Shown here: positions 17,373 through 43,610 of the stretch, one piece after another
Numbering within the stretch: the first letter of the stretch is position 1
Layout: each line of letters starts with the position of its first letter
Translations under genes and position numbers: made by a program
The notes under the pieces: generated by a model
The model's input: only the letters and a program-made list of their open reading frames with translations
What the model was told of the DNA's origin: nothing
Databases searched by the model: none
Assembly: GCF_011386835.1 (NCBI RefSeq)
Contig: NC_088793.1
Location: 170,066,001-170,130,000 of the forward strand
Direction: 5' to 3'
DNA from: Chrysemys picta bellii
Lineage: Eukaryota
DNA: 64,000 bases

Positions 17373-17802
17373 CTGAAAATAATTAAAAGTGACAGGTGAG
17401 CACAGCTGGGAAAGAGAGCTAAATTGATAACATATTTTGTCTGACTAATTATAACTTTTTAACCTACAAATCAGCATGGAAATATTAAAATACTGCAGTG
17501 TAGTTACTCTACTGCAAGTATGACTTCAATGTTCAACTATACCTAAAGGTAAATGCAATAGACCAAATGTTGATAAACATGGGCCCTATCTGGCAAAATT
17601 TTAGTTACATAAGTAGGCTTTCCTCATGCAAGTCATCCTACTGAAATCAATTTTACTCATGTGACTAAAGTTTTAAAGGATCCGATCCTATATTTGTATT
17701 TCTTGTGTCCCTGAGAGGATACTTAGCTGCATGACATCTTTGTGTTCATCATCATGTAGTTCTAATTTCTTCTGATTGAACTGACTGCGTATCTTGAGTC
17801 AA

Positions 17803-18014
17803 GTATCAGGGGGTAGCCGTGTTAGTCTGTATCTACAAAAACAATAAGGAGTCTGGTGGCACCTTAAAGACTAACAGATTTATTTGGGCATAAGCTTTCG
17901 TGGGTAAAAACCTCACTTCTTTGGATGCATCCGAAGAAGTGAGGTTTTTACCCACGAAAGCTTATGCCCAAATAAATCTGTTAGTCTTTAAGGTGCCACC
18001 AGACTCCCTGTTGT
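17803..18014. mobile_element. Penelope-like non-autonomous element, palindromic, 13-bp TSD
   Basis: Terminus GTATCAGGGGGTAGCCGTGTTAGTCTG shared with 20401, 31027 and 43368; 160-bp palindrome 17848-18007; TSD TATCTTGAGTCAA (17790-17802 and 18015-18027). Penelope assignment is from recognition of the terminus and the ribozyme motif. Confidence 0.8.
17927..17967 (+). ncRNA. Minimal type I hammerhead ribozyme motif (U4C core variant)
   Basis: GCAT-CCGAAGA-A-GTGAGGT TTTT ACCCAC-GAAA-GCTT-ATGC: stem I GCAU/AUGC, CUGANGA-like core, stem II hairpin, GAAA, palindromic AAGCUU in place of stem III. A mirror copy at 17888-17928 (minus strand) has the mutated core CCAAAGA. Confidence 0.65.
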
Positions 18015-20265
18015 TATCTTGAGTCAAAACATTCAGAAGAAATACCTACCCAGTATGGACGGTAAGAAAGTTTCACATACAAGGAAATTATTCTGTTTAT
18101 ATGGAAGCAGTATATTACACCAGGCAGTATGAATTACAGGTCATTGAACTTACATATAAACAAACACATTTTTAATTAAACTAGTTTATACTCCTCTTAT
18201 AAGAAACATTCATGAAGTCATTTCTGATAACTCCTATGGAACAGTTGATCCATCCTATTTGGAAATATATCTGAAACCTATCCAAGATTTTATGACTTTT
18301 CCAGAAGAATAATACGTCCTAGTTTTTCCAGCTGGAAAGGTTGGGCAAGTTCCATTTAATGAGTGTTTTTAAATCTCCCAAGTATTAACATCAGGACTAA
18401 AGCAAGATTCGTTAGTTGAGTATATAGTATATTTCACAGGTGTGTTTGATGAGACATTTTCATCAGTGATGTTTAGGAGACACGGCAATATAACTCTTTA
18501 TTCCTTTACATTTCCAAGTGTTCTTTGCAACAAATATCAGGAAACCGAAGAGTCAGCAAGAGAGGGTTAGGACAAAACTGTGTCTGAATGAACACTGAAG
18601 TGTTAACAATCTGACATTGCTCTCAATTTTCTTGGTTTTTCATCCCCCAAAGCAGTGATTTAACAACTAAAGCCTCTATTCAGCAGAAATGTTCCACTGC
18701 TTTTGCAATGCTCAAGCCAAGGAGGTCATGGAACAGGCTTTGGCACCCAGATGAGCTATTAAGCAAGAAACTTAGCTGGGCCACAGAACCAGATGCCTCC
18801 TGCAGAGAGCCTTCAAGAGGTGGAGATTTCATGTTTATGAGTGTCTCCATCCTTGCCCTCCTCTTATGCCCGATTCAGGAATTAAAACTGGTCTTGCAGA
18901 TGGAGAGTGAAGAAGACAATATACTGAAAAACCAATGATCTTCCTTCCAAAGTGTGGATTACCAATTAGGTGTCTCTTTAGCTCCCCTTTTTACTAAAAC
19001 AATCCTATCTGTTCTTTTGCCATTGGGATTCCTTCTACAACTGACTGGGGTTATTTATTCTCCACCAACTTTCGTTTTACTTTCAAATATTAGGGTTAAG
19101 TCTCTGCAGTGAGGCCCTAATACAACACCTACTAAAGTCAAAGGGAGTCTGTCCATTGAATTCAGTTTGGCATTGGATCAGGCCTTTAATTTTCAGCAGC
19201 CTCAGAGACCTGCTTCCCCTTGAAGCTGAACTTGGTGCATGCTCAGACTGTTCAATAGACTCCATATGGTCTTCACAATGGCCAAATTTCATTTGGCCAT
19301 TAAGGGAGGCAAAGAGAGAAGTTCCTTTGACTAAAAGGGAGGGAGTAGAAACCAGAGATTGAGTTCAACATCCAAGCAGGAAACATTTTTTTGTTTTCAT
19401 TAGAACTGGGAGAATTCTTTAAATAATTTTATGCAAACATCCTTACAGTTTTCTAAATGAGTCTGCTTTGATTATTTATACAAACCCTTTGTTTGCCAAA
19501 GGAGTGGATTTTGAGAATATTGCAGAATATTTGCAGAAAGACAATGTCAGATACCTAATCTTGAATATTCACATAGGAAATATGATTCTAAGAATTAGGC
19601 TCAATCAGAAACAATAGGAGGTGTCCCGTGTCTCCACTGAAAACAGCTCTAATTCTGAATTTCAAATACTCACAGCAAACTGGTGCTGAGTAATCCTTAC
19701 ACCAAATGTTAGCTCCTAAATTACTGAACAACAAAATTAAATTCTGCTTGTGAATGACTCATGAAAGAAAAAGAGAAGGAAATTTTGTTGAATGAATTAT
19801 ACATTATGAATTATTTGCTCAGCTCTATTTTTGATTCTTGGAGTCCCCCAGGGCCTGAGCTGTGAAAGATTGAGGAATACAAAATTGATTTAGTACCCTC
19901 ATTATACTTTTGATTTACTGATGATTTGCATCTTGGCTTGATAAGACACTTATGGTTCCAATGTAGAAGACAAACATGCGGTGGTTTAAGGGGACCATCT
20001 AGATACATCTTCTGTTCTCTGTGGAAGAACTGTGATCTTAAACAGTGACACCAGCAAACAGTTAAGACAAACTTCTGATGCACTTTCTAAATAGGTATAA
20101 TATATTGGGGAAATGACCTGGAGATTCTAAATAAGTTCCAGCTTGAAATACACTGCTTTGTCACTGAGAAAAGCAATCAAACAGCCATGGAGATTGGTGG
20201 ATGGGACTCAATATCTGACAAAATAGGAAAGAACAAAAGTTGGAAGAGGAATTTATTTAAAGTAA

Positions 20266-20352
20266 GGCCTGATTCTTCATCAGTGCAAATAATGAGTAAC
20301 TCCACTGAAGACAGAGGTGCTACACACGTGTAAATGAGAGGAGAATCAGGCC
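20266..20352. mobile_element. Short hairpin MITE (GGCCTGAT-type), example of a family abundant in this window
   Basis: Perfect 11-bp TIR GGCCTGATTCT/AGAATCAGGCC. Confidence 0.65.
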
Positions 20353-20400
20353 CATAGTCTTTAAGTTTATATGAAGATATTGCTAACAATAGATAGTCAA

Positions 20401-20443
20401 GTTTCAGGGTAGCAGCCGTGTTAGTCTGTATCCTCAAAAATAT
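20401..20443 (-). mobile_element. 43-bp terminal remnant of the Penelope-like family
   Basis: GTTTCAGGGTAGCAGCCGTGTTAGTCTGTATC matches the family terminus; flanked by AATAGATAGTCAA (20388-20400 and 20444-20456), with a third copy at 20461-20473. Confidence 0.7.
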
Positions 20444-21691
20444 AATAGATAGTCAAATTTAATAGATAGTCAAAATACTTTAAAGCAATATTTAAGTAAA
20501 GTAACGCAATTGGTTTATCTTTGGATATTTATTAGCTGTAAGAACTCTACACTGTTGAAATAATTTACAAAACTAACATGTTCACAAGAGCGATACATCT
20601 CAACAGCTCAGATCCTATGATCAAAATAACGCATTCATTTCATCATCATTCAATTGTCATGAACAGAACTAGCTCCTAATGAGTTTATGGTTCCATCATA
20701 GAAAGATCTGCCTTCAGGTAATAGAAACAACTGTATTTTCTTGACGCAAGCCCTAAATACTCTTTGCTTAGACACTCTTTTGTTGTGAACATCAAAATTA
20801 TGTTTCCATTGTTTAGAAACACTCTGAAATGGACCAAGTACGAAATATTGCCCACCAGACTTTGTTTCCTGTTCAACTCTTCCTTACTGTTGAGATTACA
20901 TGCACATGGAGCTCCGAAGCATAAAAGGCTCATTTTGTAAGTCTAATGTTAAAGTTATGTGCTGTTGCTCACTAGACCAGCTCCTAAAAAGCATATAAAA
21001 ATCAGAGGAGTAAAGGAGCCCAGTCTGGCAGCTGTGAAAACTTTCACTGCTAGCATAGCCAAGCAGATGCTTCAGCTTAACGTTTACCACCCGCCCCTTT
21101 AGAATAGTGGTCAGCAAAACCATCTCAGAATTCGGAGTCCTTTGAAGGACAGAACCATTGCAGGCTGCCAATCAGCGTAAAGGTGGCTTTATGTTCAGTG
21201 GTATTTTCATTTGTGGATATTCATTTGTATTGTATTTGAGGTTAATTTTAAAGCCAATAGAAGTGGTGAGGCATAAGCTGATACACCTGTCATGTTCCAA
21301 TAGAAAGATGTATGGAAAGAAGAGCACACAACAACTTGTATCATTAGACACACGGCACCCTCAGTCTCAGATGAAGTGTAAAGAAGACACCAAAACCTGA
21401 GGGTCTGTTACCCATACAAGGAAAGAGTGTATTCCCAACTATACTTTTTGTTCTTTATGTATGGACTGTATCCTGCACTACTAAAGTCAACAGGAGTTTT
21501 GCTACAGACTTCAACAGGGCAGGATTCAATAGAGCTGGATATACTGTTTATATAAAACTATTCCTCGAGGGACTGATACTCCAGTCTATACTCCCCACTG
21601 ATGTAAGGGTTGAAGAATCTAAAAGAAGTGCAACATGCCAACAGATTTGTTTGGTTTGAATGGGTATTATCTACATAGTTCAGAATCCTCC

Positions 21692-21818
21692 TGTGACCAG
21701 ACAGCAAATGTGAAAAACCGGGACAGGAGGTGGGGAGGGGGGGTAATAGGAGCCTATATAAGAAAAAGCCCCAAATATGGGGACTGTCCGTATAAAATCG
21801 GGACATCTGGTCACCCTA
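21692..21818. mobile_element. hAT MITE (TAGGGTGACCAGA-type TIR)
   Basis: Left GTGACCAGA...CGGGACA and right CGGGACATCTGGTCACCCTA; left terminus eroded. Confidence 0.7.
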
Positions 21819-23363
21819 CTGCTAGGCTTTCACCTCATCCAGATTATATTAGCACCAAAAATACATGTGGAATATTAGATGTGTGGATGCTGAATATACC
21901 TTTGTATGCAATGAATTGGGAGGGCTGCATATGGTAATTCACAAATGGCAAAACCATGAGTGAGTTGTGCTAAATCATCTCTAGCTCATTGAATAATAAT
22001 AAAAAAACCCAGCACATTTACTGTCCTTGGATGGAGTATTCTGTTTATAGTGGGACATGCAATATATTCTATTTTTTCCATTACTTTAATATCAGCGGGC
22101 TTCTGGGCGGTTGTTTGTGAAGACACCAGGAAGAGTCTAAGAATTACACAACCAAGTTAGTTTGATTGGGTTATAAGAGTTTGAAATTCTGGAAACAACT
22201 TGCAAGAATAGTTAACATTACAGTGGTTGCCATTAAATAGTCAATGTTAATCTACAGTTTCTACAGCACAGTTATCTCCTGTAACAGAGAAGGAAACAAC
22301 TTAGGAATCTCAGATAGTGTGTGCTGTAGAAACTATTGGTAAACATTGACTTCAGAGTGGCTGCCATTAAGTTGTCTATCTGCCTTTGGTACAGATATAA
22401 AATAACTCATCACACAGGAAATGAATAGCACAAGGGTGGATAACAGAATGTAAGTTTTCCATCCTCTGGTTAAAATGTGTCCTAGATACTTAATTAATGA
22501 TATTAATTAATAACAAAAGATAGGTAGTGAGTGACCAACAGGATTGGATGCCATCCAGTAGCTGGCCATAGGATCACTGCTTGTGAAACCAGATGTAGAT
22601 TTCAGTATATCTTTTAGTGGAGAAGTGTCCACATCATGAAAAATACAATCCTTGATAGAATCAGACTTACTAGAATTTCAGCTGGAGTCTCAAAACTTAA
22701 ATGACATGAAAAATATGCAACTATCCTTCCCTCTCCAGATGTGGATGTGACAGAATAGGGGTGATGCAGATCAGGGAGGCAGTGTTGTTGCTACTGTGGA
22801 TAAAATGGAAGACTTCAGTCACCATCAGCCCATCACAAAACTTTCACCAGTACTACATTCACAGAGATCTGTTCTGGGCTCAGTAGGGCCATTTATGCAG
22901 TGAAGAGTGGCATCAGGAGAAATTCTGCCTTCGGGACATAATCAATTGTGTCATGCAGCATACGCAAGCCTGCACAATAGTCCCGCTCCTGGCCCATTAG
23001 AAGGAACAGCATGTAGCACTCATCAACACAATACAGCTGGGAGAACAAAAGGATGAAGACTGAAGACACACTGAAAATAGTTCAGTTCCTGTTAAAAAAC
23101 AAATAAACAGTCTGAGAAGTTTCCATCAGTGCTATCAGATTAAAAAACTTCAGTCTTTTTTCACAATCCTGCAGAGGAATTCAGGTCTGTTTAAAACTCC
23201 TCAAAAGAAATACCTCTGCAATGATTTAATTCAGCAACCTCTCACTCCATGCCCAGCATTATATCTGCAGACTCCACCCACCACAGAAGAAATCTAATAG
23301 AGCAGGAGAGATATACTATGCCCTGGGGAAGGCAAGGCTGAGCATTATGGCTCACATATTCAG

Positions 23364-23598
23364 TAGAGCTGGGCAGAGGACAGAAGTTCCATTTCACAAA
23401 GGATTTCAAGATTTAGAAATTTGTCTTTCTTCTAAATCAGAGCAAAAACTGACATTTCAAAATTCTTTGAAAAATTTAAAAACAATTTCAGCTTATTCAA
23501 AGTGTTTGATTTTGATTGTTTTATATAATACAAAACAAAAACAAAATAAAAGAACAAAATAATTTCAAAATGGAAAATTGAAACATTTAATTCCCACA
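23364..23598. mobile_element. AT-rich TAGAGCTG-type element, left part, followed directly by a CR1
   Basis: Starts TAGAGCTGGG like the 5376 and 13548 elements; similar TTTCAAAAT-rich interior; right TIR not found. Confidence 0.5.
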
Positions 23599-24287
23599 AT
23601 ATCATAACACCACTATATAAATCCATGATATGCCCACACCTTGAATACTGCATATAGTTCTGGTTGCCCCATCTCAAAAAAAGATACATTAGAATTGGAA
23701 AAGGTACAGAGAAGGGCAATAAAAATGATTAAGGGAATGGAATAGCTTCCATATCAGGAGAGATTAAGGAGACTTTGATGTTCAGCTCAGAAAAGGGATG
23801 ACTTAGACTTAGGAAGGATATGATAGAAGTCTATAAAATCATGAAGGGTGTGAAGAAAAAGTGTTATTTACCCTTCACATAACGCAAGAACCAGGGGTCA
23901 CCCAATGAAATTAATAGGCAGCAGATTTTAAAAAAAAACATAAAGAAGTACTTCTTTACACAACTCACAGTCAACCTGTGGAAATTATTGCCAGGGGATG
24001 TTGTGAAGGCCAAAAGTATAACTGGGTTCAAAAAAGAATTAGTAAGTTCATGGAGGATAGGTCCATCAATGGCTATGAGCCAAGATGGTCAGGGACACAA
24101 CGCCATGCTCTGGGTGTCTTTAAACCTCTCAACTGCCAGAACCTGGGACTGGTTGATGGGGGATGGATCACTCAATAGTTGCCCTGTTCTGCTCATTCCT
24201 TCTAAAGCACTTGGCATTGGACTGTCAGAAGACTGGATACTGGCATAGATGGACCATTGGTCTGACACAATATGGCCATTCTTATGT
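23599..24287 (+). mobile_element. CR1 LINE 3' portion (end of ORF2 plus long 3' UTR subfamily)
   Basis: PLYKSM..PHLEYC..FW-like and LEKVQRRA.KMI-like coding remnants; 3' end TATGGCCATTCTTATGT. Paralogs at 43039 and 46457. Confidence 0.92.
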
Positions 24288-25324
24288 CAGAACTTTTTTC
24301 CCCCCACCTGAACAAAACTCCAGTGAAAATAATCTGATTTCACTTAAATCAACCTGATGGAATGGCATATTTCTCATGGAATATGACTGTCAAAGTTCTC
24401 TGATTCTACTCTTCTGCTACAGCCATCTGTTGGGGGTGGTGTACCAGTGCACTGTCCTGGCAGTTGCTCTGAGGGGATATCATGCCTAGAGCTCCAGCAA
24501 GCACAGATCTCAGTGCCACCCCTTCTAAAGATGAGGCATCTGCTCCACTCTATGTCAGCTAGTTCTATGAGCCAGAATGGGGCCTATTACCTTGCCTCTC
24601 TCTGCTAACTTTGAAGAAACTAGGAACAACACTGGATCAAGCCTTGTGTATTCTTGTTCTCAGAGGAGCACAAGGATGGTCATTTTGCCTGACTCCTGCA
24701 TGGATGGGCAAGGGGGAAACTCTTTATATTTCTCTCCAGCTGCCCATCCATACATGGTCTTGCCCTAAATATACAGTAGTAAAGTTGCTAAGAGATACTT
24801 GGCTGTTAGTTCAGTATAGCAATTTATACTAGGATGTAATGAATGACCGTTTTGTCATCAATCTGTCACAGTACAAATATTCTGACTACCGTAAAACAGC
24901 TTTAATAATATGCCTTTGGTTAGTGGCAAGAGTGGCTAAAAATGAATTCTTGTTGTTGGAATATTGCATTTCTATGAGGTTAACCGTACTTTGGCCAAAA
25001 TAAAGTTAGAAACTAGCCTTACAGTTTCATGAGAATGCAGCATAGTACACAACTTTGATAAGGAATTCCTCAATGATCCTTGCTTTCTGGCCCAATTCAG
25101 ACCTGACGTAAGTGAGCTTAATTCCAATGGACTTTACTAAAGTTACACTTGCTTAAACTAGAACTGAAATTGGCCCTCTGTGTACAGGTATGTCTACTGA
25201 TCTCTCGCTCAGCCAAATGTCATCCTCAAAAGAAGGCATATAATTCCTATGGATGTAAACTGGAGTCATGTCTGAAAAGAAGAGGTCAGAATTATTCTTA
25301 TGGACAGAGCTGATAGCATCACCT

Positions 25325-28580: not shown

Positions 28581-30901
28581 TTTATGGTTTGTGGTAAATA
28601 AGATATAGGACCACTCAGCAAAAGAACTCACATGGGGGAACACTTACTCATATGAATGGTTCCAATGGCCAGTGAAGCACTTAGGCGTGTGCCTAACTTT
28701 GAGCATGTAAATAGTTCCATTCAACTTCAGCAGAACAAACGTGCTTAAAATGAGGCCACATGCTAAAGTGCTTTTTTGAATCAGGGCAAACTGTAAGTAG
28801 CCGTTGTGCAGCCTAGCCCCAAGAATAGTTTGCCCTGATCTACTCATTAATTTATACTAATGGGTATGAGGTCCATTGCAGATTACTGAATATTGTGAGT
28901 AAGCAAATAAACATTTTTGTAATGACCCCCTTCCCAAACAAAACATAATAAGGATATTGCATTCCAAAATACACTTTGTTTAATGCCAAATAGCGCTTGC
29001 AAAATAATGTGGAAGTAATGTGAATAATATGCCTTACCTAGAATATCTGGGACCACTCCACTGACCAAAGTGAATAAAGGTTTGCACAGTCAAGCCCTTA
29101 GAAAACAATGTATCCAAGGAATTTAGCTCATTTCAGGGATGATTCTGAACAGGAGTACAAGCTTCAGAGTTTGTTTTTTAAAAAAAACACACTTATGTGT
29201 TATTTGAACTCATTCTAAATGCAGGGAATACCTGTTCAAACCAAAAAAAAAACCCTTAGTTAATAGGAAAAGAAAACTTCTAAAGAGGGTCAACTACTGT
29301 ACCCCATATTCATGCAAATATACCCTGTTCAACTCCTACGCTTAGCACTTATATAGAAATTCACATTTTAAAATCGTTGCTTACACTGTAACTAATTAAT
29401 CCTTGCTACATCTTTGTGAAGCAGGTGAGTATTCTGATCTGTCTATGAAAGACAATTTCCCCATTATATTGTATTTAATTGCCTGAACACAATGGGTAAA
29501 ATCCTGGACCCAGTAGACCCAAATCCTGGACCCAGGATTTCACCCAAGGAGTTTTTAAATGTCCATTGCATGATCCATTTCCTTCTCCTCTAACTTCTAA
29601 TGCTAAAGGCTGAGCTGACATGCCTTCCTCACCAACCCTCATTGAAATCAGTGGGAGTTTTAGGGTCACAAGACATGCAGAATCAGGCTCCTAATTGCCA
29701 TATGTTTACTTAGTAGTCCATTAATTTTTCAAGTAACATTTACAATTCCTCCCCCCCACCCGATTTTATCTCTGACTCCTATTAAATCATTAATAAATGG
29801 TAACAAGAGGAACATTATATAATCTTTGTTATTTTAATAACCAAAACTGTTTAAATTAGCTATTTAAAGTATTTCTCCAACTTTTTCTTCCATTTTTGTG
29901 TTTCTGCAGCTATTTTCTTACAATTGACTTGGCTAGACATTGCATCAGTCTTTTCCTAGACAAGCTAAAGAGTAAATGGCCATTTCAGTGTACGATTCTG
30001 TATCTGAGAGAGATAAATTGTTTATTGTTACACTGACTAGTCTCACAAGCCTCACTTTTTCTAGTAACATTAAAGCAACTGGTCCAACCACTTTTGCTAT
30101 TTTCTTTTTTCAAATATCTCCTCTAATAATACAAGAGCAAAAAGAAACAACATGACTATGTTCAACAACAAAAAAATCATTCCAACTCCCCTCTTCAATA
30201 ATATTATTTCATGCCTTGCTATGTTTTATTTTTACTTATTGTGTAAGTCAGTTCACAGATTTCTCTTTAGCCACAAATGACTCAATATTATTTCAGAGCT
30301 ATTATATAAATGTGCACAGGGGCCTGGACAACATACAGAGTCTCATAATTAATTCGGAGCCCTCAAACAAAAGCAAAGGTAAATGGCTCTCTCCAGGATA
30401 GACTATGAATATGATTTTTTTTTAAATACAGTAAATGAAACAAAATAAAATGGCAAAGGCTCTACCCCTGCTCCCACTGAAGTCAAAGAAAGCTTTACCA
30501 TAGCTTTAACCAGGACCTGGCTGATGGTTTATTTTACTGAAATTAAACATGTTTCCTCTTCTAAGTATAGAACAATGTAAAGCTGCGGTTCTGAAAAGCC
30601 ACAGTGGGACTACTCACAGCACATAACATTAAGCATATGCATAATGCCTCACTCTAGGCATCCAGGTGCCTAAGTCCCAGAGCAATCCACAAACCAGGGG
30701 AAGATGGTTGTTCTCAACTCATGTGTGGGGTCCAACCAGGTAGGCATGCTTACAGGCTGCCAAACTCCATACAAACAACTTAAGGGAGGAAGAACCTCCC
30801 TTCAGCCCAGTGGTTAGTGTACTCAGTCAGGCGGTGAGAGATACTTACTCCAGTTCAAGTCCCACCTCTGTCTGATTAGAAGGGATTTTGTATAGGGAAC
30901 T

Positions 30902-31027
30902 TGCATCCGAAGAAGTGGGTATTCACCCATGAAAGCTCATGCTCCAATAATCCGTTAGTCTATAAGGTGCCACAGGACTGCTTGCTGCTTTTACAGATCC
31001 AGACTAACACAGCTACCCCTTTGATAC
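30902..31027 (+). mobile_element. 126-bp Penelope-like element with 14-bp TSD
   Basis: TGCATCCGAAGAAGTGGG...GACTAACACAGCTACCCCTTTGATAC; perfect TSD TTGTATAGGGAACT (30888-30901 and 31028-31041). Confidence 0.85.
30903..30942 (+). ncRNA. Minimal type I hammerhead ribozyme motif (U4C variant, CUC cleavage triplet)
   Basis: GCAT-CCGAAGA-A-GTGGGT ATTC ACCCAT-GAAA-GCTC-ATGC. Confidence 0.65.
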
Positions 31028-33609
31028 TTGTATAGGGAACTGCCACCCCTCAGGTGAATGCCCTCAACACTGGGCTATAGAGCAATTTTCTTTCTCTAAG
31101 GCCCAATTATTTGATTAAATCATGGATACAGCTGGGCTTTACTTATATCACGTAAACAGTCTGTACAGCCATAGCCTCAGAATTTCTAACACTGAACTTA
31201 ATCAGGTAAAGTCAATTCTGCTTCAGAATTCAGTGCATGTCATGCTTGACACCTATACTAGAGAGGCATATAATCAGTATGAAAAGATGCCAGCCTAAGC
31301 ACAAATATTTTGAACTACAAAAATCAGGAAAAAAAAGTTTAGGATGCAGCATGTCCCCAGCTAACATGTATGATCCTCTCTTCACATGAATGAGGGGGAA
31401 AGTGCATTGTCTATTCTGACACTGTCCAGGCAGAGGTATTTGCTTGTTGCATAATGTTACCTTGCTTCTAGTGAGTTTGCGGAGTTTATACCCATAGACT
31501 ATACGACAGCATAATGATAAGTGATATCTAATGGCTCAAACGTAAAGGGGAACAGACACCTATTTAGAAGAAATGCTCTCTTAGCATTCAGTTCCAAATG
31601 TCTACATATCTGAGCCTCACAATAGCAAATTATTTCAGAATAATATATAGATTCTGCCGGAGGGGTGGAAGGGGCATGATTTATGTTTCTATCACATTAA
31701 AGTTCCTGCCATCATGAATCTTAAAGCCACAAGGGCTACTATTGTTCATATCCTTTCCATTTTCATCTCCCATCTGAATACATTCTTCTATGAGGATGGG
31801 GAAGAAGGCCTAGAAACACTCTGGGATTCAGTGAATTTAAAAGAACAAAATTTGTTTCTTATTTTTTTCTGTTGTGAAGCAGGAATTGCTTTTATATAAG
31901 GTTGGTTGTTTTAACAGAGCGAGACTAAACATTTATAAAATACAAGTAGGGGTTGAAATATTGCATTGTGGTCACTAACATTTTGCAGCAGCATATCAAG
32001 TTTCATGTTTCATCAGCTGAATAGAGTCTGTGTGCTGAGCTATTGTGGTTCGGTAGCTGACAGCAGTCAAGTAAGTGCTACTCTCTTCCTGACTTAATCA
32101 TTTCTATTACACTTGGTGTCAAAACAATAATGTCAGTGAAATGGGCTTGCTGACATTACAGATTAGAATTGAGTGATTCTGAATGTCCTGTGACTGAAAT
32201 GCATTTTATTTCTAGAAAATTGCACATTACAATTGCAAATTAAAGAGCTTAGATCTCAATAGGCTGTATCAACACATATGTAGCATGGACTCCAAGCTGC
32301 CAAAGAGATGATCAGTCATGAAATCCATGCTGTATAATGCATACTAGCAAGTTAGGAAATTCCTAAATGCTCTCTCTGTGCTGTGTTTGGAGATGAATTT
32401 GAATAACAATCATTCAACTGCACAAGCAGGAGAGGTGGAATGGTCTGATGGTTTTCACTAGGGCTGAGAGAGTGGCAAGTGTTCCATGAACAGAATAGCA
32501 TCATTGCTTTATGCCTTCCTTTCCCCATCCCCAACTTCCACAACCTATCAAAACATGTTCACAGGCCTTCACTTTAGAAATACATCCACGTCTTATAGCA
32601 GCAGCTGGAGTAGCAGTCTGCAGAAGGTCAGAGAGTGATTGAAAGCTACCAAGTGACAAGCTGTGGCTTTCAATGACAGCAGCCACCAGGTGGTCCTATT
32701 AAACGAGGATGGACATTTTCATGGCCTGAGGAGTTAATTTTGTGCCACCCGGAGAATAGCCTATGCTATAGGACTCTCCTACAGTCCCTATAATATCCAC
32801 ATGCAGTGGTGTTTACAGGAATACAAAGAGCTTTATAAAAGCAAGAGTTATAATGGCTCCCTCTCTCTTCCTTAAAAATCAGCAAAACAGAAGACATGAC
32901 AAGGGGAAAAAAGTGAGCCCTCCTGTGAGATGCTAGTAAAACTCATCTCACTAACATTGCCATGATCAGCTGTTTCTTAGAATAAAGCAGAACAATTGAA
33001 GCTCTCATATGTATTTTACAAGGAAATGGTTTGCTGCCAAAATAATGGTGTTTGTTTCTTTTACTAAACCAAGTTTTCAAAATGTTGGAACAAACCGGAG
33101 AAATCTGTGTATGCTCCTCATTATTAAGAACAAGAGCCACAATAAAATACACTCATAAGGCACTCACTATGTTTAAAGAATTGTTTATCCCCATGGGGAA
33201 AGAAAACCCGCACCAGCAGATCTCTAAGGTAGCAAGAGAGAGAGAGAGAGTGTAGCTGATGGACAGTGATTTACACCATCATCATGAAGTGGATTACACA
33301 TAAGGCTACATTTTCACCATTGTCAGGGGTAACTGGATGCTGCACACCCTCTTCTCCTTTTTTGCCAAAGTTGGTGCATAGAGTGAATGGGTTTGGGGAG
33401 GAGTGGGATGGAATCTTGGTACCACCTGTTATTTTTCCTGGCACGGGTGGTGCTGCAAGTGTTTTCTTTTCCAACAAGATGCTTAGGCAGTGGAGGTCTG
33501 TAGTGCCGAACACCCATGGCCACACTGTGAGGCTTTATTCCAGGCATCTAAGAGGTCCACAGGATTATTACTGACCTGGTGCAGCCAAGTTAATTATTGC
33601 TGATGGTGT

Positions 33610-34529: not shown

Positions 34530-34810
34530 GTCTCTCTCTCTACCATCAGCATTAGGTAACCTCTCTCTCTCTCTCTCTCCTCACTGAAATCTCCCCATTT
34601 TTCTGTCTATCTCCCCACCCCCACATTTCCATGGCCCTCTGTCTCTATCTCCCAACTGTCTCTGTGCCCATCAGTATTTCTCCATCCTTCAAAACTGAGT
34701 CTCCAAGCAACCCAACTGCCTGTCCTTGTTCCTTCCTCCATTCACCACCTCCCTCCACACACATAATTGAATGTCTCTGGAACTCCAGCAACTCGTTCTC
34801 TCTCCTCCCT
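34530..34810 (+). repeat. (CT)n microsatellite and pyrimidine-rich low-complexity tract
   Basis: (CT)n run at about 34561-34578 within a C/T-rich stretch. Confidence 0.7.
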
Positions 34811-36530
34811 CTATACACACACCGCAGAATGGTTTGGGTTCCCCCACCCCCACCTCAAACACATACCAGGCAAGAGTCCCATTTTGCCTGAGAATGCCCT
34901 GGGTTTTACAGACATATCCTGGATATTGACAGTCTCAGCTCACAGAAAAATGGAGGGATTTTCAGCTATGCAACTCTTCTCGTTCCTCATTAGATTTCTT
35001 TCTTTTTCCACAGCAGCTCACTCTCTCTATTGCATAGTCAAAATTAAATGACTAATTTCAGGTAGTCAGCACACTATCAGCTAGGCAAATAAATTGCAAA
35101 CATCTATTTGAATAAAAAAAGTGAATTTTCTTCAGAAGCATCCAAGACACTTATTTACTTACTGCCAACATGTGGATTACTTAATTTTGTTAGTAAGTAC
35201 ATTAATGCAAAGAAGAAGTGTCACAAATACTTGCGTGAATATGTATTCTGAAGAATACTTGAGCCAGAAGTAGTAGGCTGCCATCTTGAAAACTCTTTGG
35301 GAGTCATCCAAGTTTAAATGAAAGCTGAGATTTTCATGTAAATCATCTGACTCCATAAGCAGGGGCTTTAAGAAAAATGCTAAGTATTGTGAAATTTGTG
35401 ATTCAATCATGAGAGTTGGCAACATTAAATTCAACATCTCCAATCTAGGACCAGCTGGAATCCCAAATGAGTAGTGAACTAAACATTAGTGAACAGCTGG
35501 TGCTGGCAGAGGGCACATTCACTGGTGAACTGTGAATTGGTATGGGTTCTTCCAGGGGTGGCAGAATGGGGCAGCAGTGGGTGCTAACACCCCCACAATG
35601 AAAATGAAAATATTGTGGGGGCTCATCTATGTTTCCACCTACACAATATTTCCTCTCTACCTAGGGAGGGTGTGGGATGGGACAACCTGGGTCCTGCTTT
35701 GCCTCCTGCCAGTTCCCTTGGCACTAGGGAGATGGGGCACGGGGGGGTGAAGAGCAGGAGGATAGGGAGGCAACTGCTCTGGGGGCCTGGGGCGGGTACA
35801 CCATGCCGCCGCAGCTGCCCTGACCATGCCATTCCCTCAGCCTGCTGTGCATCTCCAAGCTCAGATGCCTGCCCTGCTGCTCACTCCCAAAGCAGCCCCT
35901 GGCACTGCCTAAGGCCCCTCTGGGCTCCGGCTTCTTGGTGCATACCTCCAGCCTGAAACCTCAGCCCCCGCCCCTGGTTTCTGCTACAGTTTCTTGTCAT
36001 TTTGCTCCAAGTTTCATTACTGTGCTGCCACAACTCTTCTGAGTTATGTGCCTATCAGCTTTTCTTTGTTTAACTGACAGAAAAAAATTCTGCATTTTCT
36101 ATTCAGCAGCAAGTCAGCCATGCACATATTGGAGCCAGAGATGTTGGTATGGAATTATGGGTGCAAGACATAGCAAATATTTATGTGTGTAATCACAGGA
36201 CATCTGTTCCTTTCCCACTATGGGTGGTCTGACTCAAAAAAATCCAGCAAGTTTACACCTTTGGCTATGCAGCCCAGCCAAAATAACTCTATATTTTACA
36301 GGACCTTGATTACGGCTGCTTGTTATTTTCCCTTCACTAATATTGATTTCATGCGTAACTGTACAGAACTAAAACAAAATCAGTCATCTCAAGTCAGAGA
36401 GAGAAACTGGAAAAGTAAGTGTAGCTAGAGATACACAACTAGCCCACCATGCCAATATATTTACCATTGATGAGATTTATATATATCAAGCCTGCCATAA
36501 CACATCCCCCTGCCAACCCCTACACTTTAT

Positions 36531-36734
36531 CAGGGCCGGCTCCAGGCACCAGCTTAACAAGCAAGTGCTTGGGGTGGCCAAGGGAGAGGGGCGGCACCTG
36601 CGGCAATTCTGGGGCGGCAGGTCCCTCACTCCCTCTAGGAGTGAAGGACCTGCCGTTGAACTGCCGCCGCCAATCGCGGCTTTTTTTTTTCTTTTTTTTT
36701 GCTTGGGGTGGCAGAAATGCTGGAGCCGGCCCTG
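36531..36734. mobile_element. hAT MITE, intact and apparently recent
   Basis: Perfect 14-bp TIR CAGGGCCGGCTCCA/TGGAGCCGGCCCTG; perfect 8-bp TSD CACTTTAT (36523-36530 and 36735-36742); CpGs retained. Confidence 0.93.
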
Positions 36735-39534
36735 CACTTTATGCCGGGGAGTCTATGGATTCTAATGGTAAGAACAAAGGACCTAGAGCCATGAACATCC
36801 AGGTTGAGTATCCAATGATTTACAGTTTGACCTTGGGTAAATCATGTAACCTTGACCTTCTTATGCTATAGTCTGCCCGCTGTCCTATTTGTTAAAAGAA
36901 TAGGACCTCACTGGAAACCAGATGCTGCATCTGAGCTGAGCTTTCCATGGTAAATAAATGACATCCATCCAGATACCATGTAATGCAGTCCATCAGGAAA
37001 AAAGGTAAATCATTTTCCAACAGGGAGTTTCAAACCCACACTCTGCTCTAAAACTATAATGAAAAGATTTTTTTTTTAATGGGAATACTGCTGCCACCTT
37101 CTAAATAGTTCACCTTTCACTTTCATCAGCTGTAGAATGCAGGTTCCTGTCCAGTCCAGGTCAGTGGCATGAATTAAAGTTGGTAGCATTTGATGGCTGT
37201 TTGGTGGTCTGATAGTTCTTTGTAGACAGGTGTTCATCCCACAAAACTCGCCATAATTGGCAGTAGTTAACACCATTAGTGGCAGCCTGCGAGAGCCCAG
37301 GGACTGAACGGCCATGGAAAATTATTTTCCTCTGACCTCTGGAAGTTGTCCCTCCAGGAATACTGGCAGGCCAGTGTGTGAATCCTGCACTGCTATTATT
37401 TGTGCTGTACAGTACTAGTCCTCTGGACACCGAGAGAATATGAGTCTCTGAAGCTGCCAATCCAGCCCCTAGTGGGAGCCTTAATATCACAATTCTAATT
37501 TAATTCAGTTATTAAAATATGAACACTTGGAACTTTGAATCTGAAGTTGTGTTCAAAGTGAACTTCCCTTTGAAGCGTCTGATGTCTCCACGTTACTACA
37601 GTGAAGTTCCTAAGTAGATTTTTATATCAGAAATGACACCTTTTTCCCCCTCCCTGGATACATCCTCCAGGTGGATCTGATTCTATTTCATTAAATGTCA
37701 CAGAAGATCGCTAGACAAACACACATGACATGATTCTCATGTATGAGAAGGGGAGGGCCTCATTTTATATAGGACAGATGCAAACCAGATGGACTTGAGC
37801 TTTTTTGGGGGCGGGGCGGGGGAAGCTAAGGAGGGCTTGGGGAGTATCCTGCTGACTGTAAATTACCAAATCCGCAAGGTTACATGGCTCTGTACTTCCC
37901 AGATTTCATCACTGGATTGAATTAGATCTTTCAGAAAAGAGCTGCTTCTTTGATAAAAAATTACAAAGATAAGATGCATACAGTGGTGACTACCTTTACA
38001 ATAGCAAGACAAAATCCCTCTGACTTCATTACTGGAAGGAAATAGAACTTTCTAATAAACTCAGGAAAGCTCATGGTCTTTCTATACAGTGGAAGTGGCC
38101 TGTTTGAGGAATCAGGTCTCAGACTTTCTTAAGAATAAGTGTACAAATATCTCTGCAGGTATGCAAGGCCTAAGAACTCTAATATTTTGCATCTGCATAA
38201 TCAAATTACAATACAACCTTTGAGCCAGGTGTTTCTTGCAGCTCATTAGAACAGGGTTCAGTTCTCTGTCTTGGTCTTGGATGCCTCACATTCATCAAAA
38301 ACAGCACATTCTGCCGTCCAGGCCATCAAAAATTAGTACTGATGGCTTTTTAAGTTTCTCCTCATACAGGTTGGCCAGGAGTATGGCAGCCACAAGAAAG
38401 GATGGCAAATGGGTGGAGGTGGGATAAACAGGAGAGCCTTGGACCTTAGAGAGTGAAGGTTCTTATTCCACATCGGGAAGAAAAAAAAATGAAAGGGAAT
38501 AGTAGATTAAAAACTGATCAGACTCAGAATTCAGAGTGAAATTCTGTGATTAGCTCAATTCCTCCTACCGGGCCTGGCTGTTGTAGTCTCAAAATGCGTT
38601 CTGTGGCCCAGGAAACACCTGTGTGTTGGTAAAGTGGGGTTAGGACAAGAGGGAAGGGGTACCTAAAAAGAAAATACATATTTAGAAGTATTTGAAAAAT
38701 CAAGGGCACTTTTATAACTAAAAAATATGTAGATAGACTTCATTTGCCAGTTTGATTTATGTGAATCCTGATTACTTTTAGCTATAGCTTTATTAACTTA
38801 ATACAGTAAAAGCATGTTAAGGTCAAGTGCATTAATTAACACCACCACAGTTAAAATGTTGCCATATCCATTTGCCATGTGGTGCATTGGATTCCTATGG
38901 CCAAAAACTTTATTAATTTAACAGCTTTCCATTTTTGAGTGCTCACTGCATGAACACATTGGCAGGTCCCATAACATGACACAAAACTTGGGAACCTACA
39001 AAACAGAGGATTATATAGTCTATTTAAATCTGAGCTAAAGAAGTGTCTGGAGTTCAAAAAGCACAAAGTCAGGAAATGAAGCTAAGGTTGTCTTCCTACC
39101 TTCACTCTGTTTCTTTGTGTGTATGCATTACAAGCCAGTCTTTATGGGCAATGTTTTCAAAAGAGCTAATTGGCTTAGGAGTTTAAGTCCTATTGAAAGT
39201 CAGTGGGACAGAGGCCCAGCTGACACACAGATATTGTACCGGTATAACTATTGTGCATAGGGGGATGATTTTTTGAAAAAAATAACAGAAAAACAGATTA
39301 GTTATACTGGAACGACCCCTAGTGCAGATACTGTTATACTGGTATAAGCACCTCCATGCTAGTATAACTGTGTCCCATAGGGACCTTTGCACCGGCTGAG
39401 AAGATGGCAGACAATTGTACACTCAACCCTGCCCCAACACATTCTTTTACCTCCCACTGTCAGGAGTAATCCTCAATTATTCCTTTATACCATTTTCTAG
39501 CCACTTCGTGCAGCTGGAACTAGGCTGAGGATCT

Positions 39535-39640
39535 GGACCTCAGTGACTTGCCCAGGATCACACAGGAAGCCGGTGTGGGAGCAGAAATAGAACCCAGATT
39601 CTTTGAATTCTATTTCAGTGCCTTGATCATCCTTCCTATT
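39535..39640 (-). mobile_element. CORE/MIR-like SINE fragment
   Basis: AGTGACTTGCCCAGGATCACACAG...GAAATAGAACCCAG is the reverse complement of the MIR core and B-box region. Confidence 0.65.
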
Positions 39641-42600
39641 TCCACAAACTCCTGCCTCATTCACTACAGTACCCAGCTGGTGGTGAATGAAGTGGGGCTG
39701 CTATTGGCTGAATAAGACAGCTGTCTGAGGAAACATTAGTTTGTGATCATGTAATAGACTCTATTGTATGCACAGAGAAGTACAGTTAAGGTTGTACACC
39801 AAACAAACGAAAGGCAGATTTACAACATAGAGGTGCTAGAGTCATTCATTTTAATGTTTTCTCTCTTAGCAGAAAAAAATGCTTTTGTCACTCTCCTTAC
39901 TTCAAAACAGCTCAGCCCCCTCCCCCCCCTTTTTTCTTAAGTCAAAGTTTCAGGAAAAAGTTTCTCTGATTCAGAGCAGCATATTAAATGTTATCTGCAA
40001 AGGTAACACTGAGAAAAGTTATAAACAATTGGAAACAGTCTTTTATAAATGGCAATACGTACTGTACTGCATAGTAGCAAACTGAAATCCTGCATGTTAT
40101 ACTTTATAAAAATTGTTTATAGAGCTCAAACGCTCTCTGGACATGAATGAATAATGATCATATATGTTTGCATGTTTACTCTGGGTATCTACGGAACGTG
40201 ACTTGATTGCTTCAAGTCATCTGGGGAAGAGTTAGCATCTGCCATTTTTTAAACATAAGGGCCCCAATCTTCTACTGAGCTACACTGGCAAGCCCCAATG
40301 TTTTCAACAGAGTTTCAAGTGGGTACACAGGTCTATCTGCATGGTGTTCTGTGCAGGATCAGGGCCAAAATAAATATACTCCATTACTGAGTGCAATACA
40401 ATCTAAACCTCATTTAGGAGGGCACATTTCCTGTAAGCACCACAGCAGAAGCGGGTCTTGTGGAGCAATGTGAAAGAGGAGACTGCCTGGCTATTTGTGC
40501 TAGCCCTATAAAGACACTGCAAGAGGCTATGAGTGTTATTCATTTATTTTAGGCCAGATTCTGCAACCTTCCTCATGCTGAGTTACTCTGAGCAGTCAGA
40601 CTGAAATCAATAGGGCTACTCACAGGGTAAAGAACTTCTTAACATGAATAAAGGTGGCAGGATATATCCCACTGATATTTTCTCTTTTCTCAAGTGCCCA
40701 TTGCTAGGATATAAAAGGCCAAAACAGTGATTAAAATTATTCTTGGTTATTGGTTATAGCTTAAGACAAGCCACCACAAATAAATGAAAAAATAATCCAA
40801 ACAAAAGAGCGATGATGAAAAGGAGGCGAATAAAGCCCAACACATAGCTGGCTCAAGCCTCTGAACACAGCAACAGAGAGATTCTAGTTGACATCTGCAG
40901 AGAGATCAACAGACAGATTCCCTGTAACAAGAAGGGCCTGCCTCTAGCCCAGCACAGATCGAAACTCTGGATGGAAAGCAAAGATAGCACAACTGATCTC
41001 AATAGCCTGGGAGAGGCACTGGGTGGGAGACTGGAACTCAATGGACACAGGCCTTATTTTTTTAAGAGCTTTATGTTAGTGCTGAACAGATATCTACAAA
41101 ACGATCTGCAAACATTCATCCAAATACAAAAGTCAGTTACCTTTGCCTGTGACTAAGTGATCATTTTCCAACAATATTCTAAGAAACTGGCCAAGGGTTA
41201 TTTGGTGAATAATTCTGAGAAACAAATGTACTCAAGAAAGCCATAAAGACTGTTTGTGGACAATTCATAAACAGAAAAGAGGTGAAAAATGTCAAGTTAT
41301 TTGCTAAGCTCCACTTTCTACCAGCTATAAAAGATCAGGCAGAACACAGAAGTGGATATGGCACTCTTATTATCAAGCCTTTAGAGCTGAAGAGGAGAGA
41401 CTCAATGACAAGAATTAATGTTGCTTTGGGGAGAAGCAGTGGAAATTGAAAACATACAAAGATGCTGTTCTTAGTGGGAAGGAGGTATGCTGCTTTTGTG
41501 AGCATTTTATGGCAGCTCCTGAAATTAAACTTCTATCGTTATTATGAGCTCAGAAAGGCTGTGCAAAATAAAAACCAGAGCTTGCTGCAGAATTTGGCCT
41601 AGAAAAATGTGATGATCTGCTCCCCACATTTCCTCTTCATCCTACCCCCCAAAACCTCCCCTCTCCTTTCTCTCTCTCTCCCCCCACCCCCAACTAGCAG
41701 TCCTGAAAAGTTGGGTGTTGCATAGCCACATCCAAGCACTGAGGTTACAGGCTGTTTAGGTGGAATTGTTTTAGCTTCTCTTGTCACTAGCAGATCCCAA
41801 GATATTGTCATTGTCACTTTGGAGTTCTTCAGCAAAATACACTAATGAAAGCTACACTAACTCCCAGCATCCAGGCAGTTAAAAGGTTAAATACTGTTGT
41901 ATCAAAGGGTACCCCTCCCCCACCCAGGACTTTTTGGTTTTCTCCACAGCTTGTCTGTAGGCACAAAGAAAAATGACTGCAAACGCTTGATAGTGAGCAT
42001 AGACCAATATGTCATTCACACGTGTGAGAATAGTTGTTCCTTTATAAGAAAAAAGATTTCCTAAGAATTAGCTGAGTTCCATAAATCAGCTTCATGTTGA
42101 AGCATGACATATGGCATTCCTCTCTACTGTCCAGTCAAAAGCTCTGTCTGGAAATGGATGCCTGTGAGAGACTTTTTTTTTAGATGCAAACACAAGAAAA
42201 ACCATGGTGTGATCTTTTCACGCTCCTGGCAGAAGTAGTTATGGACTTAGATATAAGTAAGCCACGTGAAAGAAGTGTTGTATCAATCCAAAGGACTGAT
42301 CAGTGTCGGTGATCCCTCATGGAGTAAGGCACTAAACAATCAGTCAGGTATCAAAATTTGGGCCAGATTTGGGGGGAGCATCAAGACTTGCACTTTTGTT
42401 TCACTGAGTGAACTCAAATGCCATTGTAAGAGTGGAAAGACCACCACTAGAGAGTGTTATGGGTCAGGGCTGAACCCAATGATTAACTCATAAATATAAC
42501 AAAACCTGCTGTAATGCAAGAAACAAAAATGCATAAGTTATTGAATGCAGTTGCTGTTACTTCCATGCTGTGAAGAGTTACTGACTGGTGGTAAATATTT

Positions 42601-43038
42601 ATATCACAACATTTAAGGCCTACTAGTTTGCCAGTTAATTCTGGTTTTTTCCTGCTCTGCTCTTGAGATTGTAAGGGGCAGAAGCATAAACAGCAGGTGG
42701 TATATGCAAGATCTAGTGCTTTGTAAAACTGGCAGGTGGTTCTAGTAAAAAAATCTAGAACAACCCAAATTTGAACTAAGTTCAAAGTTATACCCACTTC
42801 AAAATGTTTGAGTGACAATGGCATGTCCATCGTCAGGTCTGAAAAGGATCTCCCCTAAGGCCTTAATCCAATAGGATAACCAAAAAGGGAAAGGACAAGT
42901 GTTGTTGTACTTCATTTATACAAAAGAGTGTGATAAAAAGCTCTCTCTTTACATTGCACATCTTTCTGTTTTACTCATAGTATAACAAATAAGTACGTTG
43001 TAATCATATAGCACCTTTCAAGGGATCTCAAGGAGCTT

Positions 43039-43307
43039 AAGGCAAGACTATAACAGGGTTCAAAAAAGAACTAGATACATTCATGGAGGATAGGTCCATC
43101 AATGGCTATTAGCCAGGATGGGCAGGGATGGTGTCCCTAGCCTCTGTTTGCCAGAAGCTGGAAATGAGCGACAGGAGATGGATCACTTGATGATTACCTG
43201 ATCTGTTCATTCCCTCTGGGGCACCTGGCATTGGCCACTGTCAGAAGACAGGATACTGGGCTAGATGGACCTTTGGTTTGACCCAGTATGGCCGTTCTTA
43301 TGTTCTT
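43039..43307 (+). mobile_element. CR1 LINE 3' end
   Basis: GGGTTCAAAAAAGAACTAGA..AGTTCATGGAGGATAGGTCCATCAATGGC-like start through TATGGCCGTTCTTATGTTCTT; paralog of 23599 and 46457. Confidence 0.93.
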
Positions 43308-43367
43308 GTTAACAAGGGTAACTATTCCCACTTTGAAGACAGAGACAAGACAAACAGAAATTAAGGC

Positions 43368-43610
43368 TCAGAGGGGTAGCCGTGTTAGTCTGGATCTGTA
43401 AAAAGCGACAAAGAGTCCTGTGGCACCTTATAGACTAACAGACTTATTGAAGCATAAGCTTTCGTGGGTGAATACCCACTTCGTCAGATGAATGTAGTGG
43501 AAATTTCCAGAGGCAGGTATAAATATGCAGGCAAGAATCAGTCTAGAGATAACAAGGTTAGTTCAATCAGGGAGGATGAGGCCCTCTTCTAGCGGTTGAG
43601 GTATGAACAC
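43368..43610 (-). mobile_element. Penelope-like element 3' fragment (longer copy)
   Basis: Same terminus TCAGAGGGGTAGCCGTGTTAGTCTGG and body as 17803 and 30902; extends about 120 bp beyond the ribozyme; no TSD seen. Confidence 0.8.
43452..43491 (-). ncRNA. Minimal type I hammerhead ribozyme motif with canonical core
   Basis: Minus strand TCAT-CTGACGA-A-GTGGGT ATTC ACCCAC-GAAA-GCTT-ATGC: exact CUGANGA/GAAA core and perfect 6-bp stem II. Confidence 0.75.

What the first reader, a model, noticed from the sequence alone, without database searches (positions are those of the whole stretch)
17790..43610. Putative ribozyme-bearing non-autonomous retroelement family with a fixed 5' boundary and a CAA target signature
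Seen: four insertions (17803, 20401, 30902, 43368) share the terminus GT(A/T)TCAG..GGTAGC.CGTGTTAGTCTG. Three have 13-14 bp TSDs, and in all three the duplicated target ends in CAA immediately before that terminus (..GAGTCAA|GTATC, ..TAGTCAA|GTTTC, ..ATACAA|GTATC). Two independent copies begin or invert at the same point, TGCATC, which is the 5' strand of hammerhead stem I, giving a unit of about 126 nt. No Pol III A/B boxes or poly(A) tail are visible. Inferred: a short SINE/retrozyme-like unit mobilised in trans by a Penelope RT/GIY-YIG partner with a 5'-TTG target preference or priming microhomology. Hammerheads in Penelope elements are known; whether this short unit is described as a separate family I cannot check.
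Basis: partly seen in the sequence, partly recalled or inferred. Interest (0 to 1): 0.7.

Follow-up and report, generated by a model that had tools for sequence, protein, structure and literature searches.

The report
Penelope stubs marking the RNA start
These four inserts are short end-pieces of protein-coding Penelope-type jumping genes, not a separate ribozyme element; such pieces stop far more often than chance at one spot that likely is the capped start of the element's own RNA, a testable clue to how these poorly understood elements copy themselves.

Summary
The four insertions are real, but they are 3' ends (pLTR plus tail) of autonomous Penelope-like elements from three subfamilies, not a SINE/retrozyme family. 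Relatives run upstream into an RT/GIY-YIG gene and downstream into its ATG; intact 893-aa copies sit in 2,880-bp tandems; short and long copies carry the same variants. The 'CAA target signature' fails: TTG is the element's own next three bases, starts only 5 of 83 TSDs, and becomes CT in a subfamily whose tail continues CT. The 5' boundary is a strong hotspot, not a fixed end: 45 of 86 arms reaching it stop there, 29 of 101 run past. It lies 28-32 nt below a TATA-like box, shifts to the nearest pyrimidine-A in a non-palindromic subfamily and is often preceded by an extra G, so it likely is the capped transcription start, reached by internally primed reverse transcription. TSDs peak at 12 bp with C/G mirror flanks, and inverted copies pair a tailed with a tail-less arm, suggesting twin priming by a dimer. 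No RNA 5' ends could be tested. The scan reported this reading before in other genomes.

The parts
17790..17802 (.). copy 1, TSD left copy (13 bp apparent; includes TTGAC shared with the element's tail continuation)
17803..17929 (-). copy 1, tailed arm: hammerhead-bearing pLTR + tail, subfamily B
17926..18014 (+). copy 1, inverted tail-less arm, joined head to head through the ATGCAT palindrome
   Evidence: (I2)
18015..18027 (.). copy 1, TSD right copy
20388..20400 (.). copy 2, TSD left copy (13 bp)
20401..20443 (-). copy 2: 43 nt, tail only, subfamily C type (GGCTGCTAC..GAAAC), no hammerhead
20444..20473 (.). copy 2, TSD right copy followed by a third copy of the target (20461-20473)
30888..30901 (.). 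copy 3, TSD left copy (14 bp apparent)
30902..31027 (+). copy 3: single-arm pLTR + tail stub starting at the 5' hotspot, subfamily A
30902..30942 (+). minimal type I hammerhead motif (stem I 4 bp, CYGANGA, stem II, GAAA, 2-bp palindromic stem III; predicted cut after 30938)
   Evidence: sequence; stems; motif class PMC4209133; activity untested
31028..31041 (.). copy 3, TSD right copy
43368..43602 (-). copy 4: 5'-truncated copy running 109 nt past the hotspot; no TSD found
43518..43525 (-). TATA-like box (TATTTATA) about 30 nt upstream of the 5' hotspot, inside copy 4
   Evidence: promoter function inferred
43567..43602 (-). last codons and TGA stop of the RT/GIY-YIG ORF, inside copy 4

Best explanation
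The insertions are short 3'-end copies (pLTR plus tail) of autonomous Neptune/Nematis-type Penelope-like retroelements, likely made when the element's own enzyme primes reverse transcription inside its mRNA just upstream of the ATG and runs off the RNA's capped 5' end about 127-133 nt away. Shown: element anatomy, intact coding copies, the 5' hotspot, two clusters of 3' ends (at the terminus and 30-46 nt upstream), 12-bp modal TSD, about 2 nt of target/tail microhomology. Inferred: (1) a TATA-directed Pol II start at the pyrimidine-A just before hammerhead stem I; (2) a dimer nicks both strands 12 nt apart, preferring C|N12|G; (3) each nicked end primes at one of two RT start sites, helped by 1-3 nt of pairing; (4) the two cDNAs stop at or before the RNA 5' end and are joined head to head (inverted copies such as copy 1), or only one is fixed (copies 2-4); (5) stubs lack the TATA box and would be dead ends; longer copies come from templates with sequence upstream of the pLTR (downstream pLTR of tandem transcripts, or circles).
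For: Autonomous origin: relatives extend upstream into RVT_1 + GIY-YIG coding sequence and downstream through TTGACACC into the ATG (L129, L103, L244); many 919-codon open frames, 893 aa from ATG, in 2,880-bp tandems; short and long arms share variants (D: 33:39 vs 11:10, p 0.63; 50 of 72 short arms identical to a long arm over 52 nt). Hotspot: subfamily B 45 of 86 arms reaching +1 stop at -2..+1, 0.13 per nt against 0.002-0.004 per nt further upstream; tail-anchored sample 34 of 59; subfamily D 47 of 100 arms end at -3/-2, and 20 of 34 single-arm insertions end at -3..+3. Start-site reading: AT-rich box at the same place in subfamilies A, B, C, D; peak at A(-1) in B, at A(-3) in D where -1 is T and there is no palindrome, spread over -3..-1 in A where both are A, also in non-palindromic ATGCGT copies; G precedes 14 of 20 D arms ending at A(-3) but 2 of 27 ending at -2 (p 2e-5), 15 of 18 insertions (simulated P 5e-5), 9 of them not templated by partner arm or target on my reading; genome-wide G 1327, C or A 1003, T (element continues) 4853. 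An untemplated G is attributed to copying the cap in L1/SVA (PMC3287187, passages). Twin priming: 34 of 44 inverted D insertions pair a tailed with a tail-less arm, none two tailed or two tail-less; single arms 16 tailed, 18 tail-less. Target: among TSDs of exactly 12 bp, C before in 29 of 44 and G after in 31 of 44; AC-N12-GT 18 versus 0-5 at other spacings in set 1. Microhomology mean 2.0 nt versus 0.69 simulated, 83 TSDs. Internal initiation at two sites, two-strand cleavage and a predicted dimer are reported for PAc (PMC11167929, main text read).
Against: No RNA 5' end was seen: only assembled contigs were available. The extra G is partly confounded: 6 of the 15 can come from the partner arm or the target; in B only 7 of 12 non-palindromic -1 ends have G, and in A only 3 of 12 ends at -3 (6 of 10 at -1). 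TATA-to-peak distance differs (28 nt in D, 32 in B). Many -2 calls in D are inflated by CTT microhomology with the partner arm, and perfect palindromes count twice among B arms. The spacing scan shows no peak at 12 in B set 2 (C-N12-G 15, C-N13-G 20 of 37 sites) or in D (14 versus 16 at N10; 32 sites). One B insertion (L206) has two tail-less arms. D. virilis Penelope has a TATA-less internal promoter (PMC2377424, passages), and PAc initiates at a site not homologous to the cut DNA in vitro (PMC11167929). All samples are the first hits on contig C1.
Confidence: 0.72

Rival explanations
1. Same autonomous element, but the 5' hotspot marks an RT stop or an RNA-processing/decay stop at the 5' edge of the folded hammerhead or of a protein footprint, not a transcription start.
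For: Cross-subfamily conservation begins sharply at TGCATC; the hotspot lies within 1-4 nt of the first stem I pair; no RNA start data.
Against: Stem I is the same 4 bp in B and D, yet the peak moves 2 nt to the next A; extra G before that A; conserved AT-rich box about 30 nt upstream.
Confidence: 0.14
2. One reading: a separate non-autonomous 126-nt SINE/retrozyme-like family that is transcribed and mobilised in trans, with a TTG target preference.
For: Abundant copies of near-constant length with TSDs; non-autonomous PLE derivatives exist (retrozymes, bioRxiv 10.64898/2026.07.22.740005; MRC1 in PMC8557442).
Against: No variants private to short copies in B or D (52-nt segment only); stubs lack the upstream TATA-like box; no head-to-tail arrays of the short unit were seen among the junctions inspected; ends do not fall at the predicted ribozyme cut (1 of 121); TTG starts 5 of 83 and 1 of 32 TSDs and is replaced by CT in 23 of 30 subfamily C copies versus TT in 51 of 84 A/B copies (p 8e-14).
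Confidence: 0.04
3. Ordinary random 5' truncation plus fold-back (self-priming) at the ATGCAT palindrome, as proposed for head-to-head PLE palindromes on an antisense template.
For: Perfect palindromic junctions at ATGCAT are common in B (26 arms); self-priming was proposed in PMC3846280 (passages).
Against: The hotspot persists in non-palindromic D and ATGCGT copies and in single-arm insertions; junctions often hold untemplated bases between arms; the two arms have their own defined 3' start sites.
Confidence: 0.1

Closest known systems
Canonical EN+ Penelope-like elements, Neptune/Nematis type (Craig et al. 2021, PMC8557442, passages; Arkhipova et al. 2013, PMC3846280, passages)
   Same: Single RT + C-terminal GIY-YIG ORF, CX2-5CxxC linker, pLTR, heavy 5' truncation, partial tandems, inverted 5'-truncated arm, 30-40-nt tail at one end, TSD of about 8-10 bp in rotifer examples, TATA box plus Inr-like sequence noted in a rotifer pLTR.
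   Different: The passages I read give no single-nucleotide 5' hotspot, no extra G, no 12-bp mirror-flanked target, and explain inversions by self-priming or EN-mediated resolution.
PAc, Poseidon element of Anolis carolinensis (Frangieh et al. 2024, PMC11167929, main text and part of methods read)
   Same: Internal RT initiation at two sites separated by the tail, cutting and extension of both strands, predicted dimer, hammerhead cleavage dispensable.
   Different: Poseidon clade; initiation 111-118 nt inside the ORF and stated to be non-homologous to the target; ATT preference. Here the start sites lie 3-12 and about 40-55 nt upstream of the ATG, with about 2 nt microhomology and C|N12|G flanks.
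[quoted passage not shown]
   Same: Type I minimal motif, short stem I, extra A before stem II, palindromic stem III; reported in turtle; mostly single motifs in truncated PLEs.
   Different: Nothing in the motif; the paper does not map ends of the short copies.
Non-LTR retrozymes (bioRxiv 10.64898/2026.07.22.740005, abstract, introduction, part of methods and passages; PMC7229834, search listing only)
   Same: Hammerhead-bearing, non-coding, pLTR-related.
   Different: Retrozymes are head-to-tail tandem units delimited by the ribozyme; these stubs are single or head-to-head, start about 37 nt upstream of the predicted cut, and are indistinguishable from the autonomous pLTR.
L1/SVA full-length insertions with cap-derived G, and L1 twin priming (PMC3287187, passages; twin priming recalled)
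   Same: Untemplated G at the RNA 5' end; inversion by priming from the second strand.
   Different: Here both arms copy the same stretch from two fixed sites about 35 nt apart, with no poly(A).

Membership tests
EN+ Penelope-like element | single ORF with RT and C-terminal GIY-YIG | tested here: met
   Pfam RVT_1 and GIY-YIG above cut-off; 893-aa ORF with DKG and YIDD; shown on genomic relatives, of which window copy 4 holds the ORF end
EN+ Penelope-like element | pLTR from tandem/partial tandem organisation | tested here: met
   2,880-bp tandems ORF-pLTR-tail-ORF
EN+ Penelope-like element | 30-40-nt tail at one end; inverted 5'-truncated arm | tested here: met
   window copy 1
EN+ Penelope-like element | minimal hammerhead in the pLTR | tested here: met
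   core and stems across subfamilies; one compensatory pair only; no Rfam hit
EN+ Penelope-like element | hammerhead self-cleavage | not testable with these tools
   no pile-up of 5' ends at the predicted cut, 1 of 121
Neptune/Nematis clades | CX2-5CxxC linker before the EN and two Cys inside GIY-YIG | tested here: met
   CNKPRCQLC at residue 734 and IICQQCPSAMYIG; criterion from PMC8557442
Neptune/Nematis clades | RT phylogeny separating Neptune from Nematis; match to a named Repbase/Dfam family | not tested
   no reference set on hand
Non-LTR retrozyme | head-to-tail tandem units each with a hammerhead | tested here: not met
   none among junctions inspected; tandems seen are full-length coding units
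Non-LTR retrozyme | unit ends set by ribozyme cleavage; circular RNA | tested here: not met
   ends at cut site 1 of 121; circular RNA itself not testable
SINE / independent non-autonomous family | own lineage with diagnostic variants | tested here: not met
   (52-nt segment, subfamilies B and D)
SINE / independent non-autonomous family | internal promoter (Pol III boxes or other) | not tested
   no scan run; an internal Pol II promoter as in D. virilis Penelope is not excluded

The most novel reading that the evidence does not exclude
The stubs are a genomic record of the whole integration reaction of Neptune-type Penelope elements: a dimer nicks a mirror-symmetric C|N12|G site, both DNA ends prime on one capped mRNA at two fixed sites flanking a conserved 9-bp pLTR-tail stem, and both cDNAs run off a TATA-defined cap site at the edge of the hammerhead. 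The dominant product of the 5' pLTR would then be a dead 'strong-stop' stub, and productive copies would need tandem or circular templates.
Probability: 0.5. Interest if true: 0.68.

Novelty: new member of a known kind. Interest (0 to 1): 0.48.

Why it matters
The element class and its anatomy are known, so as a 'new family' the finding is ordinary. Its value is mechanistic: how Penelope-like elements make tails, inverted arms and pLTRs is still open (PMC8557442 and PMC11167929 say so), and these tens of thousands of copies give nucleotide-level predictions for the RNA start, the two priming sites and the nick geometry that an existing in vitro assay can test. It also warns that solo hammerhead-pLTR copies should not be annotated as SINEs or retrozymes.

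Tried and rejected
Rfam scan of the window: no hammerhead family hit at E<=1. First DNA search ranked copies by likeness to a query that included TTG, so it was used only to find long copies, not for end statistics. RNA evidence: 24 runs listed, all contigs; laying four of them showed coverage but no starts, and cannot separate element transcripts from host introns or DNA. PDB sequence search with the full ORF: no match at E<=0.01. Splice-acceptor explanation of the boundary rejected: no AG before it in A, B, C or D. Ribozyme-cut explanation rejected. TTG/CAA as endonuclease preference rejected. The de-duplication collapsed distinct insertions (60); one search gives 78; TSD counts rest on the 60. 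Rows dropped: 38 of 121 without a convincing TSD, two segmental duplicates, 29 of 66 without TSD in set 2, 28 of 60 in D, 37 of 121 lacking an intact GATAC in the next-base test. A genome-wide count of B copies continuing upstream was not obtained; the sample-based hazard stands in for it. No structure or complex prediction was run. Literature searches found no paper describing the hotspot, the extra G or the 12-bp symmetric site; subscription papers (Arkhipova 2006, Evgen'ev and Arkhipova 2005), Repbase/Dfam entries and all supplements were not seen and may describe them.
Full report
Observation. The four insertions are at the stated places. Copies 1-3 have exact TSDs of 13, 13 and 14 bp that abut the terminus as CAA|GT(A/T)TC; copy 1 is a head-to-head pair joined at GATGCATC and copy 3 starts at TGCATC. 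But the shared terminus is the 3' end of the hammerhead-sense strand, copy 2 is only 43 nt of tail, and copy 4 has no TSD and runs 109 nt beyond TGCATC. Positions below are relative to the T of TGCATC (0).

What the unit is. Genomic relatives continue upstream into a reverse transcriptase plus GIY-YIG reading frame (Pfam RVT_1 and GIY-YIG) and downstream through TTGACACC into its ATG. A protein search returned 92 scored matches, many with 919-codon open frames (893 aa from ATG) and several in 2,880-bp tandems. The protein has the CX2-5CxxC linker that marks Neptune and Nematis (PMC8557442, passages). The 126-nt unit is therefore the pLTR plus tail of an autonomous element. Exact-pattern counts give 3,746 (A), 5,846 (B), 15,990 (C) and 12,494 (D, youngest). 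Window copies 3 and 4 are A, copy 1 is B, copy 2 is C type. Short and long arms carry the same variants at the same frequency in B and D, so no short-only lineage is visible.

The CAA signature. In a sample anchored inside the tail (121 arms, first hits on contig C1), 83 had TSDs of 11-18 bp; only 5 began with TTG in register, and TSD starts spread from -7 to +9 around the terminus. Overlap between TSD start and the element's own sequence averaged 2.0 nt against 0.69 simulated (3 or more: 33% versus 5%). In subfamily C, whose tail continues CT, copies are followed by CT in 23 of 30; in A/B by TT in 51 of 84. The signature follows the element, so it is element sequence plus priming microhomology, not a nuclease preference.

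The real target signal. TSDs peak at 12-13 bp apparent, mode 12 in the youngest subfamily (12 of 32). For TSDs of exactly 12 bp, C precedes in 29 of 44 and G follows in 31 of 44; AC-N12-GT occurred 18 times against 0-5 at other spacings in set 1. Against this, the spacing scan is flat in B set 2 and in D. I read a loose mirror preference C|N12|G, as a dimer nicking both strands would give; this is inference.

Two 3' start sites. Arms end either at the terminus or 30-46 nt upstream in a U-rich run. In D, 34 of 44 inverted insertions pair one of each, the other 10 involve shorter arms, and single arms are 16 tailed and 18 tail-less. This fits two initiation sites separated by the tail and two-strand extension as shown for PAc (PMC11167929), with one site per strand. 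An invariant 9-bp stem pairs the pLTR with the tail and encloses the upstream site (no covariation, so unproven).

The 5' boundary. It is a hotspot, not a fixed end. In B, 45 of 86 arms reaching +1 stop at -2..+1 (0.13 per nt versus 0.002-0.004 upstream) and 29 of 101 run past -12; in the tail-anchored sample 34 of 59 and 19 of 121; in D 47 of 100 arms end at -3/-2, 22 run past -12, and 20 of 34 single-arm insertions end at -3..+3. Only 1 of 121 ends at the predicted ribozyme cut. Three observations point to a transcription start. An AT-rich TATA-like box lies at the same place, about 30 nt upstream, in A, B, C and D; a TATA box with Inr-like sequence was also noted in a rotifer pLTR (PMC3846280). 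The peak follows the pyrimidine-A: A(-1) in B, A(-3) in D, which has T at -1 and no palindrome, both in A, while stem I is unchanged. And G precedes 14 of 20 D arms ending at that A versus 2 of 27 ending one base later, 15 of 18 insertions, 9 not templated by partner arm or target; genome-wide G 1327, C or A 1003, T 4853, so at least 2,330 of 7,183 arms stop at this one base. Untemplated G is the recognised trace of copying a cap (PMC3287187). Caveats: partner-arm templating explains part of the G; the excess is weak in B (7 of 12) and absent at -3 in A (3 of 12); no RNA 5' ends were available; D. virilis Penelope uses a TATA-less internal promoter (PMC2377424).

Mechanism. Most likely (0.72): mRNA starts in the 5' pLTR; the protein binds near the ORF start, nicks both strands 12 nt apart, primes at the two sites with 1-3 nt of pairing, and runs off the capped end after about 95 or 130 nt; the cDNAs are joined to each other (through ATGCAT where it exists, as in copy 1) or to the target. 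Stubs lack the TATA box and would not propagate. Element identity, hotspot, start sites, TSD length and microhomology are shown; promoter, cap, dimer and single-RNA use are inferred. Rivals: structural or processing stop at the hammerhead edge (0.14), random truncation with fold-back (0.10), independent SINE/retrozyme (0.04).

Novelty. Element class, pLTR, tail, inverted arm and hammerhead are described (PMC8557442, PMC3846280, PMC4209133). Eight literature searches found no account of the hotspot, the extra G or the symmetric 12-bp site, but key subscription papers, Repbase/Dfam and supplements were not seen. Earlier notes of this scan reached the same reading in other genomes; they are unchecked and are not counted as support. 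Verdict: a new member of a known kind; the proposed family is not supported, the mechanistic signature is worth testing. Interest 0.48.

Noticed in passing
L279:1545-1565 (G000:C1, about 373,765-373,790): Filler between the two arms of a subfamily D insertion reads like two to three telomeric repeats (GTTAGG-type), curious given the kinship of PLE RT and telomerase; one case only.
   Followed up: no
window 20444-20473: The target of copy 2 is present three times (a 17-bp tandem duplication at the 5' junction).
   Followed up: partly
pLTR columns 56-64 and 108-116 of alignment A2; window 30953-30961 with 31000-31009 approximately: A 9-bp stem between pLTR and tail is invariant in 12 of 12 copies from five subfamilies and encloses the upstream RT start site.
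   Followed up: partly
window 43518-43525: The subfamily A TATA-like box reads TATAAATA on the antisense strand, as noted for a rotifer pLTR (possible bidirectional promoter, PMC3846280).
   Followed up: no
G000:C1:335136165-335153733, C2:178346226-178360394, C2:236712567-236723973: Arrays of up to four intact 2,880-bp units followed by an inverted partial copy: a very young, high-copy subfamily D.
   Followed up: partly
window 37292-37460 (-): Sub-threshold Rfam match to uc_338 (E 3e-08, 46.8 bits); from memory this family derives from the ancient LF-SINE.
   Followed up: no
window 23800-24290, 43024-43307, 46460-46970, 13299-13418, 61380-63050: 3' fragments of what look like CR1 LINEs (label recalled); copy 4 lies about 60 nt beyond the end of one.
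   Followed up: no
window 49470-49642 and 5581-5880: Short inverted-repeat elements (80-nt arms with 13-nt spacer; nested arms), MITE-like.
   Followed up: no
subfamily B junctions L156, L168, L219, L227, L231: Several arms begin G-TGCATCC, with G in place of A(-1); unexplained.
   Followed up: no
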